64,000 nt of DNA, from positions 66,481-130,480 of the forward strand of contig CAVYTA010000002.1 of assembly GCA_963771355.1 (NCBI GenBank), in the 5' to 3' direction. This DNA comes from an uncultured Candidatus Rokubacteria bacterium. Lineage in GTDB: Bacteria > Methylomirabilota > Methylomirabilia > Rokubacteriales > CSP1-6. This document shows, one piece after another, positions 42,001 to 45,000 of this stretch. Each line of letters begins with the position of its first letter. Within the stretch, counting starts at the first letter, position 1. Position numbers: made by a program.

Positions 42001-45000
42001 TCGGCTTCGGCTACGTGGATCCCGCGCGGGCGGCCGCCCCCGCGTCGGTGGCGCGTCCCCGGCGGCCGCTCACCGAGCTGGTGCACTGGGAGACCTGGTG
42101 ATGCCGACCGCGAAGCTGGGCGACGTCGAGCTCTACTACGAGATCACCGGCGAGGGTACCCCGCTGGTGTGGAGCCACGAGTTCGGCGGCGACCACCGCT
42201 CGTGGGAGCCGCAGGTGCGCTACTTCTCGCGGCGCTACCAGGTGGTGACCTACAACCACCGCGGCTACCCGCCCTCGAGCGTCCCCAAGGGCGCCGCCGG
42301 CTATTCGCAGGACCACCTGGTGCAAGATCTCCACCGGCTGCTCGAGCACCTGGGGCTCGGGCCCGTGCATCTGGGCGGCTGCTCCATGGGCGCCAACGTG
42401 GCGCGCGACTTCGCGCTGGCGCATCCGGAGAAGCTGCGCAGCCTCATCATGGTGGGCGCCGGCGCGGGCGCGGTCAACCGCGAGCAGTTCCTCGCCGGCC
42501 AGGCGGCCATCGCGGACGGGCTCGAGCGCGAAGGGCAGGCCCACCGCGTGCGCGGCTTCGAGACGCTCGCCACCCGCACGTCCTTCAAGGCCAAGGATCC
42601 GCGCGGCTTCGCCGAGTTCGCGCGCCAGGCCGGCGAGCACGACGCGCAGGCCTGCGCCCACCTCGCCCGCGAGGTGATGTCCAAGCGGAAGACGGTGCCG
42701 GAGGTGGCGGCGGGGCTCCGGGCGCTCCGCGTTCCCACCCTCATCATGGTCGGCGACCTGGACGCGCCGTGCGTGGAGCCCTCCCTCATGATGCGGGGAT
42801 TGATCCCGCACGCGGGCCTGGTGGTCTTCCCCGCCTGCGGCCACACGCCGAACATCGAGGAGCCCGGGCTCTTCAATCTCCACGTCACCGAGTTCCTCGC
42901 CTCCGTGGAGCGCGGGCGCTGGGCGGGCTGGTCGGCCTGAGATGACGCCGTCCCCGGCGGGCGTGCGCGTGGGCGCTCCGCGCCGGCCCGCCCGCGGCGC
43001 CCGGCCATCGGAGGCCGTGATAGGGTAAAGGTCCATGCTCAACGCGACCCGCGACAAGATCCTGCCTACCACCGTCACCGGCTCCTATCCGCGCCCCGCC
43101 TGGTTCACCGAGGAGCTGCACGGCCGCTCCTTCAAGGACGCGCTGGGCCACGCCCGCTTTCGCGAGCAGTATCTCGACGCGGTGTCCTGCCTCCTGGCCG
43201 AGCAGCAGCGCGCGGGGCTCGACATCCTCACCGACGGCGACTCGCGCTTCGATCTCACCGTGGGCGGCAAGTCGTGGTTCTACTACCCGATCGAGCGGCT
43301 GCGCGGCATCACCGGGCATGCCGACGCCTCCACCGCGGGCGACTGGAAGGTGCTGCGTCCCGGCCGCATCCTCTACGAGGTGATGGAGGCGTATCAACCC
43401 TCCATCGTGGGAGAAAAGCTCGCCGCCGGCGATCTCGAGTACGCCGCGCTGTACAAGGCCGCGCAGCGCCTTGCCGACCGGCCGGTGAAGTTCGGCGCCA
43501 TCAGCGCCCAGACTCTCGTGAAGATGCTGGTGAACAAGCACTACGCCTCCGAGCGCGAGCTGATCATGGACGTGGCCGACATCTTCAACGTCCAGCTCCG
43601 CGAGGTGGCGGCCGCGGGTTGCGGCGTCATTCAGGTCGAAGAACCGCGCCATCACATCTCGGCGGCGGCGGGCGCGGCCTCGGACAAGGACCTGCAGTTC
43701 TTCACCGACGCGGTGAACCGGGAGATCAAGGGCGTGGAGACCGAGGTGTGGCTGCACACCTGCTGGGGGAATCCCAATCAGCAGCCGCTGCACTGGGAGC
43801 GTCCCTCCTACGAGCGCGCCCTGCCCTATCTGCTCCAGACCGACGCCGACGCCATCGGGCTCGAGTGCGCGAGCACCAATGGCCGCGACCTGCCGCTGCT
43901 GGGGCGCTACCGGACCGACAAGAAAATCGTGATCGGCGTGGTGAGCCATACCGTCACCGCGGTGGAGCCGCCCGAGGTGGTGGCGGGCCTCATCCGCAAG
44001 GCGCTGGAGTACGTGCCGGTGGAGCGGCTCATTCTCTCGACCGACTGCGGCTTCGGCCGCGAGGGCCTCTCGCGCCGCATCGCCTTCTACAAGAGCGTGG
44101 CCATCAATCTGGGCGCCAATATCGTGCGGCGCGAGCTCAAGCTGCCCGAGGTGCCGATCCCGGCCGCCGACGCGCGCTTCACCTTCGCCGGCTAGGTTCG
44201 CCGGACATTCAGGATATGACGTCGCGACGCGGATTTCTCCGGAGCGCCCTCACGCTGGCCGGCGTCACCCTCATCGGCGGCCGCGCGATCGCCGCTCCGC
44301 GGCCGCCCGTCACCGTCCACCGATCGCCGACCTGAGGGTGCTGCACCGCGTGGGTCGTGCACCTGCGCAGCCACGGGTTCCCGGTGACGGAGCGCAACGA
44401 GACCGACCTCGCCCCGGTCAAGCGGCGGCTCGGCGTGCCCACCGCGCTGGAGTCCTGCCATACCGCGCTGATCGAGGGCTACGTGCTCGAGGGCCACGTG
44501 GCCGCCGACCTGATCGACCGTCTCCTCCGCGAGCGGCCGAAGATCGTGGGGCTCGCGGTGCCCGGCATGCCCGTCGGCTCGCCCGGCATGGAGTCGCCCG
44601 GCATGAAGCCCGAGCGCTATCAGGTGCTGACGTTCGACGGTAACGGGCGCACCGGCGTCTTCGCCACGCGCTGAAGCGGCACGCGTCCCCTACCGAAGGA
44701 TCTGATCCGCTCGCTCCAGGATCGCCGGCGAAGCGTCAGTCCGATGGCCTTCCCCTTGATCACGTCGCGGTCACCGCGGAGGGTTGCCCGGCCCGCGCCC
44801 GCATCAGCCACGAGTACAAGCCAACCAGGAGCACCGCGGCCAGCGCGAGCGCGATCGACTGCATCAGCCACATCCCGGTGATGCCCCAGGGAGGCCCCGC
44901 CGCTCCGCGAAGGGCGAGCTGGTAGCCGCCGAACACTCCCACCCCCCAGAGGGTGACGGCGTAGATCACCGTGGGCGGGACCACGATCTTGTGCGCGCGC

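What a model noticed while it worked through the whole genome (the two positions that open the first line are those of the whole stretch)
44216..44674. Selenocysteine in the copper-cluster motif of a CopG/DUF411 protein (new selenoprotein family)
The DUF411 gene g00352 is mis-called: the true gene runs C2:110696-111154 (+, 152 aa) through the in-frame TGA at C2:110813-110815, read as selenocysteine (U40). It encodes a twin-arginine-signal periplasmic CopG-like copper protein in which Sec replaces the first Cys of the conserved C-x-C-C motif (SPT-U-GCC-TAW). CopG/DUF411 is not among the selenoprotein families listed so far.
Evidence so far: ATG plus twin-arginine signal lie upstream of the TGA; the called gene starts 8 codons behind it. 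Solved CopG of P. aeruginosa (6WIS/6WJE, E 6e-35) aligns over residues 32-150 with the first Cys of its CGCC at the TGA column. Six-frame search of 181 Rokubacteriales genomes: 64 genomes with a match; of 72 places listed 56 hold exactly one in-frame TGA and 16 none (3 of the 16 do not span the site); in 14 of 14 loci inspected the TGA is at the same column, followed by GCC, and a GC-rich hairpin of 8-10 bp starts about 15 nt behind the UGA. Sec machinery present. No NCBIfam model hits the full protein; no DUF411/CopG in Table 1 of PMC13188914; paper searches calls 100, 102 gave nothing relevant [...]
(Added by a program. Inside this text positions count along the whole contig: contig position 66,481 is position 1 of the stretch shown here. 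"Call 12" and the like, gene names such as g00115 and contig names such as C1 are that model's own, and its searches are not shown. The text may have been shortened before it was handed on; [...] marks where a part breaks off. The agent that wrote the report below was given it as the finding of a first reader that could run no searches.)

Follow-up and report, generated by a model that had tools for sequence, protein, structure and literature searches.

The report
Selenocysteine form of copper protein CopG
This gene has a TGA "stop" codon exactly where its relatives have the first cysteine of a copper-binding motif, and it is very likely read as selenocysteine, which would make this likely exported CopG-type protein part of a widespread selenoprotein family that gene callers cut short and that the 2026 catalogue I read does not list.

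Summary
Confirmed and widened. The gene runs 44216-44674 through TGA 44333-44335 (U40), aligned to the first Cys of CopG's CxCC. Independent short-read contigs keep the TGA. In the order, 57 of 70 site-spanning places have TGA and 13 have Cys. A GTDB pattern scan gave 120 of 120 CopG homologues (about 870 stretches estimated) from many phyla, including cultured Helicobacter. TGA moved to the next Cys gave 0 of 66. A SECIS-like hairpin is selected in TGA genes and not in Cys genes. selA was found in 47 of 50 distant carriers. All putative copper ligands are kept. The family is absent from the 119-family table of PMC13188914, and NCBIfam has no model for it. Three sources could not be read. Sec insertion is inferred, not measured (about 0.96). 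A CopG-like copper redox role is likely (0.62), but most Sec copies lie away from copper genes. The scan found this before on other DNA (57 notes, at least 40 genomes).

The parts
44216..44674 (+). Full gene, Sec-containing CopG/DUF411, 152 aa
   Evidence: relatives of 147-159 aa with the same layout
44216..44293 (+). Predicted twin-arginine signal peptide (S-R-R-G-F-L-R, hydrophobic core, A-I-A cleavage site); judged by eye, no predictor run
   Evidence: sequence. Differences from two same-genus copies fall mostly on third codon positions (12 of 22; 16 of 38). Upstream frame open for at least 30 codons in 182 of 186 TGA loci; 3 of the 4 exceptions are cut by a locus end.
44333..44335 (+). In-frame TGA, inferred selenocysteine U40 (first Cys of CxCC; first position of a thioredoxin-type UxxC)
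   Evidence: model puts it just before helix 1, after strand 1
44339..44344 (+). C42 and C43 of the U-x-C-C motif
44348..44368 (+). Candidate bacterial SECIS: 8-bp stem, 5-nt loop with G-U at loop positions 2-3, 20 nt behind the UGA, -10.0 kcal/mol
   Evidence: meets the four published bSECIS rules
44357..44359 (+). GTG used by gene callers for the truncated 105-aa product
44447..44590 (+). Pfam DUF411 (PF04214) region with C81, H82, H94, M118, M125
   Evidence: these five residues are kept in 177 of 177 Sec sequences

Best explanation
The gene carries an in-frame TGA at the first cysteine of CopG's CxCC motif that is very likely decoded as selenocysteine, giving a predicted exported thioredoxin-fold protein that likely binds copper and shifts it between Cu(I) and Cu(II) in the periplasm, as P. 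aeruginosa CopG is reported to do. Shown here: the TGA and its column, the Cys/TGA pairing across many lineages, selection on the hairpin, the Sec genes, the CopG fold and the kept ligands. Inferred: SelB binds the hairpin 20 nt downstream and delivers Sec-tRNA; the protein is exported by Tat; the selenolate at the start of helix 1 acts as a softer, more easily oxidised copper ligand or redox partner of C43. Without selenium, translation would stop at codon 40 and give little more than the signal peptide. Probability of Sec decoding about 0.96; of Sec decoding plus a copper redox or handling role about 0.62.
For: TGA at column 40 in 57 of 70 site-spanning places in the order. 120 of 120 pattern hits in GTDB are CopG homologues. 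Control with TGA at C42: 0 of 66 metagenome hits are CopG genes (a different collection). SECIS: in 57 TGA genes of the order, Leu50 is CTG (48) or the rare CTA (9), never CTC, against CTC 216 and CTA 1 of 414 Leu codons further down the same genes; 7 of 10 Leu codons at this place in Cys genes are CTC. The loop begins GG/GU in 50 of 57 TGA vs 1 of 13 Cys genes, and in 22 of 28 vs 0 of 30 in Gemmatimonadota. Helicobacter copies show a U-A to C-G double change in their stem (4 vs 2 sequences). The genome's own Sec formate dehydrogenase has a like hairpin. selA, selB, tRNA-Sec and selD are in G000. selA is in 47 of 50 distant carriers; among betaproteobacteria-titled carriers 6 of 6, against 23 of 80 sampled genomes of that order. 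Model pLDDT 95.6, TM 0.90 to 6WIS, next hits thioredoxins and glutaredoxins. Copper link: 6 of 6 betaproteobacteria-titled TGA loci with flanks lie by multicopper oxidase, cupredoxin or CusF/CusA genes. Secondary sources say CopG holds a four-copper cluster through CxCC and two Met.
Against: No protein-level evidence. Only 24 of 132 TGA loci had one of 10 copper-gene queries nearby, against 14 of 43 Cys loci; in this order 9 of 52 vs 9 of 13 (8 of those 9 from one genus; up to 30 loci had only 1.5 kb flanks). The window's copy has no copper neighbour. 12 of the 55 TGA genomes of the order gave no selA hit. Of 5 followed up, 4 showed selB, tRNA-Sec or a TGA formate dehydrogenase, and G148 showed none. 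selA background is high in the order (155 of 183) and in Gemmatimonadota (121 of 151), so those two sets test little. My simple bSECIS rule passed 40 of 57 and 21 of 28, but only 33 of 94 TGA genes of other lineages, and also 10 of 43 Cys genes. Part of the stem is dictated by the W-V-x-H-L motif. G000's selA has a one-base frameshift as assembled; short-read contigs lack the extra base. In R. capsulatus the Cys and Met motifs of CutG were dispensable for CutO activity. I could not read the structure paper, so which Cys binds which copper is unchecked.
Confidence: 0.62

Rival explanations
1. It is a real selenoprotein, but works mainly as a periplasmic thiol-disulfide oxidoreductase through U40-x-x-C43, like Sec thioredoxins and glutaredoxins, with copper binding secondary.
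For: Thioredoxin-like fold with U40 at the start of helix 1. UxxC is a very common Sec motif in Table 1 of PMC13188914. Most TGA copies lie away from copper genes. SCO, DsbA-like and OsmC-like genes are neighbours in a few loci.
Against: C81, H82, H94, M118 and M125 are kept in 177 of 177 Sec sequences. Betaproteobacterial TGA copies sit inside multicopper-oxidase operons. The sequence is far closer to CopG than to any redoxin.
Confidence: 0.24
2. It is a selenoprotein that binds or reduces another soft metal (silver, mercury, gold) rather than copper.
For: Selenolate binds soft metals strongly (own knowledge). A MerB-like gene neighbours 3 loci and a MerR-family regulator 3 loci.
Against: Copper genes are the commonest metal neighbours. 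The ligand set matches CopG. The P-type ATPases nearby were not typed by metal.
Confidence: 0.08
3. The TGA is a true stop or is read as another residue: the gene is a pseudogene, or the 105-aa product from GTG 44357 is the protein.
For: Public collections hold the 105-aa form. The ribosome-binding site before 44216 is weak (GGA about 10 nt upstream). The hairpin alone is not unusual.
Against: The same codon at the same column recurs in 179 distinct sequences from many phyla, with frames open on both sides. No such stop occurs at the neighbouring Cys. TGA is this genome's main stop codon. The short form would lack the signal peptide and the CxCC motif.
Confidence: 0.04

Closest known systems
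CopG of Pseudomonas aeruginosa (DUF411, PF04214; PDB 6WIS, 6WJE) and CutG of Rhodobacter capsulatus
   Same: About 50% identity over the mature part, TM 0.90, same CxCC, C-H, H and two-Met set, N-terminal export signal.
   Different: The first Cys is encoded by TGA with a SECIS-like hairpin; twin-arginine signal in this order; not in a copper operon here.
Bacterial UxxC thioredoxin-fold selenoproteins (Trx, Grx, UXX-star NF041212/NF041114)
   Same: Sec at the first position of a CxxC at the start of helix 1 of a thioredoxin fold, SECIS inside the coding region.
   Different: No NCBIfam model hits this protein at E up to 1; one Cys relative brushed UXX-star at E 0.13, far under its cut-off. It has the extra Cys, His and Met ligands and the C-terminal extension of CopG.
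Predicted metal-handling selenoproteins in Table 1 of PMC13188914 (E1-E2 cation ATPase UxxC, CopZ-like 2Fe-2S protein, SO_0444 Cu/Zn transporter, putative mercuric transport protein, MbdU)
   Same: Sec in a presumed metal-binding motif.
   Different: Other folds and families. Here the Cys twin has a solved structure with a reported copper cluster and activity, so the role of selenium can be tested directly.

Membership tests
CopG/DUF411 | PF04214 above its cut-off | tested here: met
   88.2 bits vs 27, full profile
CopG/DUF411 | Thioredoxin-like domain plus C-terminal extension, as in 6WIS | tested here: met
   predicted model, TM 0.90, rmsd 1.8; folded with C in place of U
CopG/DUF411 | CxCC motif and two Met | tested here: met
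   U40-x-C42-C43, M118, M125; first position Sec instead of Cys
CopG/DUF411 | Exported protein | tested here: inconclusive
   RR motif and hydrophobic stretch seen by eye and by regex; no predictor or experiment
CopG/DUF411 | Gene often in copper-resistance clusters | tested here: inconclusive
   not in this window; 24 of 132 TGA loci
CopG/DUF411 | Binds a four-copper cluster and interconverts Cu(I)/Cu(II) | not testable with these tools
   known to me only through PMC7558416 and PMC8456105
Bacterial selenoprotein | In-frame UGA aligned to a conserved Cys of homologues, in many genomes | tested here: met
Bacterial selenoprotein | bSECIS: stem 4-16 bp, loop 3-9 nt with G early, 16-37 nt behind UGA, at most -7.5 kcal/mol | tested here: met
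   8 bp, 5 nt, G second, 20 nt, -10.0; codon-level selection; not more stable than shuffles on its own
Bacterial selenoprotein | selA, selB, selC, selD in the genome | tested here: met
   selA frameshift likely an assembly error
Bacterial selenoprotein | Selenium shown in the protein | not testable with these tools
   needs labelling or mass spectrometry
Listed selenoprotein family | Present in current catalogues or NCBIfam | tested here: not met
   absent from Table 1 of PMC13188914, deep-Sep supplements and NCBIfam 20.0; BSepDB Table S2 and two papers not readable

The most novel reading that the evidence does not exclude
Sec40 is a direct ligand of CopG's four-copper cluster. That would give a natural copper-selenium cluster enzyme, present in hundreds of species of many phyla and switched repeatedly between selenium and sulfur, tying periplasmic copper handling to selenium supply. 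I know of no such natural centre, and a paper search showed none by title or abstract start.
Probability: 0.4. Interest if true: 0.85.

Novelty: new variant of a known kind. Interest (0 to 1): 0.62.

Why it matters
It would add a widespread family (about 870 GTDB stretches estimated) to a catalogue of 119, and correct many truncated database proteins. Because the Cys form has a solved structure and a reported activity, it offers a natural sulfur/selenium pair at a copper site. That makes the old question of why cells use selenocysteine testable for copper chemistry, and cultured carriers exist (Helicobacter brantae; 6 of 7 genomes of its genus).

Tried and rejected
Sequencing error at the TGA: rejected. 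Alternative genetic code: rejected. Hairpin stability alone as evidence: uninformative. selA co-occurrence in Rokubacteriales and Gemmatimonadota: uninformative because the background is 85% and 80%; the 12 TGA Gemmatimonadota genomes all have selA, but 3 of them were also hits of the pattern scan. Loss of Sec machinery as the cause of Cys forms: not supported; the one Cys Helicobacter genome keeps selA. Sec at C42: none found; Sec at C43 not tested. Tree: the careful run did not finish. The quick tree of 153 of 219 rows (124 columns, many open forks) needs 17 Sec/Cys changes, at least 5 forced by well-supported branches; direction and number of origins are not resolved. Paper searches: selenocysteine+DUF411 0 papers; selenoprotein+CopG+copper 5 unrelated; DUF411 58 papers, 25 listings seen, none on selenium by title; Rokubacteria search nothing relevant. 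PMC11672702 (first half held) and PMC13685413 do not mention CopG. No complex prediction was run.

Full report
Observation. The window has ATG at 44216, an in-frame TGA at 44333-44335 and a stop at 44672-44674. Read with TGA as Sec it gives 152 residues. The N-terminus has a twin-arginine motif and a hydrophobic stretch (judged by eye). Under table 11 only a 105-aa ORF from GTG 44357 is called, and that exact protein is in NCBI, Logan and ENA. Pfam DUF411 covers residues 78-125. The only PDB sequence match is P. aeruginosa CopG (6WIS/6WJE, E 5.9e-35), whose first CGCC cysteine aligns with the TGA. Contigs from two DNA runs and two RNA-library runs span the codon unchanged. TGA ends 2949 of 4811 long ORFs in the genome, so the code is standard.

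Spread. A six-frame search of the order matched 65 of 183 genomes. I fetched the 70 places that span the site and left out 3 fragments and 6 weak hits: 57 have TGA and 13 TGC at column 40. A pattern for P-x-U-[G/D]-C-C-x-x-W-x-x-[H/Y] over GTDB returned 120 loci from 10 of 64 parts, about 870 stretches estimated. All 120 are CopG homologues by tblastn; 6 duplicate loci already held. Record titles name Acidobacteriota, Gemmatimonadota, Chloroflexota, Actinomycetota, beta- and gammaproteobacteria, deltaproteobacteria/Binatia, Tectomicrobia, Rokubacteria and the isolate Helicobacter brantae. In 151 sampled Gemmatimonadota genomes, 106 have CopG and 12 have a TGA copy that spans the site. As a control, the same pattern with TGA at the second Cys gave 66 hits in the metagenome collection and none is a CopG gene; one matched only over the 16 pattern residues. 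So the stop is specific to this position.

SECIS. Folded alone, the RNA behind the UGA is no more stable than shuffles, and the W-V-x-H-L motif supplies part of the stem. The comparison of TGA and Cys genes is what counts. For nine fixed pairs, the 57 TGA genes of the order form 8.21 pairs against 6.48 expected from synonymous shuffles; the 13 Cys genes form 6.15 against 5.87. Leu50, whose third base faces a U, is CTG 48 times and CTA 9 times, never CTC. Further down the same genes CTC is 216 and CTA 1 of 414. The loop starts GG or GU in 50 of 57 TGA vs 1 of 13 Cys genes, and 22 of 28 vs 0 of 30 in Gemmatimonadota. Kin are not independent, so these are not exact probabilities. The window's hairpin (44348-44368; 8 bp, 5-nt loop, 20 nt spacing, -10.0 kcal/mol) meets the four published rules (PMC13188914, passages) and resembles the hairpin of the genome's own TGA formate dehydrogenase. 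Helicobacter copies show a double change that keeps a pair. Against: my simple rule passed only 33 of 94 TGA genes of other lineages, and 10 of 43 Cys genes.

Machinery. G000 has tRNA-Sec, selA and selB together on C7 and selD on C4. Its selA is frameshifted as assembled; short-read contigs from two runs lack the extra base. Of the 120 pattern loci I chose 50 non-Rokubacteria ones for taxonomic spread: 47 genomes have selA. Six betaproteobacteria-titled carriers all have it, against 23 of 80 sampled genomes of that order. Within the window's order 43 of 55 TGA genomes have a selA hit, no better than the background of 155 of 183. Of 5 well-assembled exceptions, 3 have selB near a contig start, one has a TGA formate dehydrogenase, and one shows nothing.

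Structure and function. The model of the mature part (C for U; 80-sequence alignment) has pLDDT 95.6 and matches CopG at TM 0.90, then thioredoxins and glutaredoxins. U40 lies between strand 1 and helix 1, the place of the first Cys of a thioredoxin CxxC (own knowledge), with C43 as partner. C81, H82, H94, M118 and M125, which the pattern did not force, are kept in 177 of 177 Sec sequences. Two papers (passages of PMC7558416 and PMC8456105) say CopG binds four coppers through CxCC and two Met, acts as a copper oxidoreductase and aids anaerobic copper resistance, and that the R. capsulatus homologue has only a minor role. The primary paper was not held. Neighbourhoods: 24 of 132 TGA loci and 14 of 43 Cys loci had a copper gene nearby (10 queries taken from the loci themselves, named). 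Betaproteobacterial TGA copies sit in multicopper oxidase-cupredoxin-copG(-cusF) operons, so the Sec form can fill the CopG slot. One locus that I had grouped there (L094) is Chloroflexota and is not counted among the six. Most others, this one included, stand alone. A quick tree needs at least 5 well-supported Sec/Cys switches.

Mechanism. Most likely SelB reads the hairpin, Sec enters at codon 40, the protein is exported, and the selenolate serves the copper site as ligand or redox partner (0.62). Rivals: periplasmic UxxC redoxin (0.24), another soft metal (0.08), true stop or other residue (0.04). Sec decoding itself is about 0.96.

Novelty. I read Table 1 of PMC13188914 in full (119 families): no DUF411, PF04214 or CopG. 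Term searches of the four deep-Sep supplements found no DUF411, CopG or UGCC. BSepDB's main text has none; its supplement was cut before Table S2. NCBIfam of June 2026 has no model for the protein. Paper searches found nothing. Haft and Tolstoy 2025 and Deng et al. 2026 were not held; the latter screened groundwater genomes including Methylomirabilota and could list it. I put the chance that it is unreported at about 0.75. The scan itself noted this family 57 times in at least 40 other genomes; those are unchecked notes and not counted as support.

Verdict. A real, widespread Sec variant of CopG and a likely unlisted selenoprotein family. New selenoprotein families appear regularly, which limits surprise. 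The solved Cys twin, the copper site and cultured carriers make this one unusually testable. Interest 0.62.

Noticed in passing
G000:C7 about 113220 (L001:1489): selA has a one-base frameshift in the assembly; contigs of two short-read runs lack the extra base, so it is likely an assembly error.
   Followed up: yes
window 49754-51976 and 51996-52869: One ORF looks like two acyl-CoA dehydrogenase genes run together, and a metallo-hydrolase-like gene seems split by a frameshift; possibly further indel errors.
   Followed up: no
L239, L240, L241 (G000 C7 start, C6, C4 end): Three formate dehydrogenase matches with one TGA each; L239 and L241 share the same 60 nt from the TGA, so the ends of C4 and C7 may overlap.
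   Followed up: partly
G000:C4:225335-226252: selD lies in an 817-aa open frame and has Cys, not Sec, at its active site; likely a fusion.
   Followed up: no
L183, L309-L313: 6 of 7 genomes of the genus of Helicobacter brantae carry the TGA form with a 5-bp stem, GGUC loop and a compensatory double change; the seventh has Cys but keeps selA.
   Followed up: yes
G014, G167, G174, G192, G197, G377: These genomes hold both a TGA and a Cys copy, which may be a backup for selenium shortage.
   Followed up: no
L024, L033, L155, L162, L163, L063, L072: Variants U-D-C-C (5), U-R-C-C and U-T-C-C; the pattern scan misses the last two kinds, so 870 is likely low.
   Followed up: no
L082 (G186): The record is titled Streptomycetaceae, but gene and operon group with betaproteobacterial copies and no selA was found; possibly mis-binned.
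   Followed up: partly
L058 (G148): A TGA copy inside a copper cluster, in a 95% complete genome where no selA, selB, tRNA-Sec or TGA formate dehydrogenase was found.
   Followed up: partly
window 43035-44195: A cobalamin-independent methionine synthase-like gene ends 20 nt upstream on the same strand; this neighbour recurs in only 2 loci.
   Followed up: partly
window 44729: Short-read contigs of two DNA runs have one extra base here, between genes.
   Followed up: no
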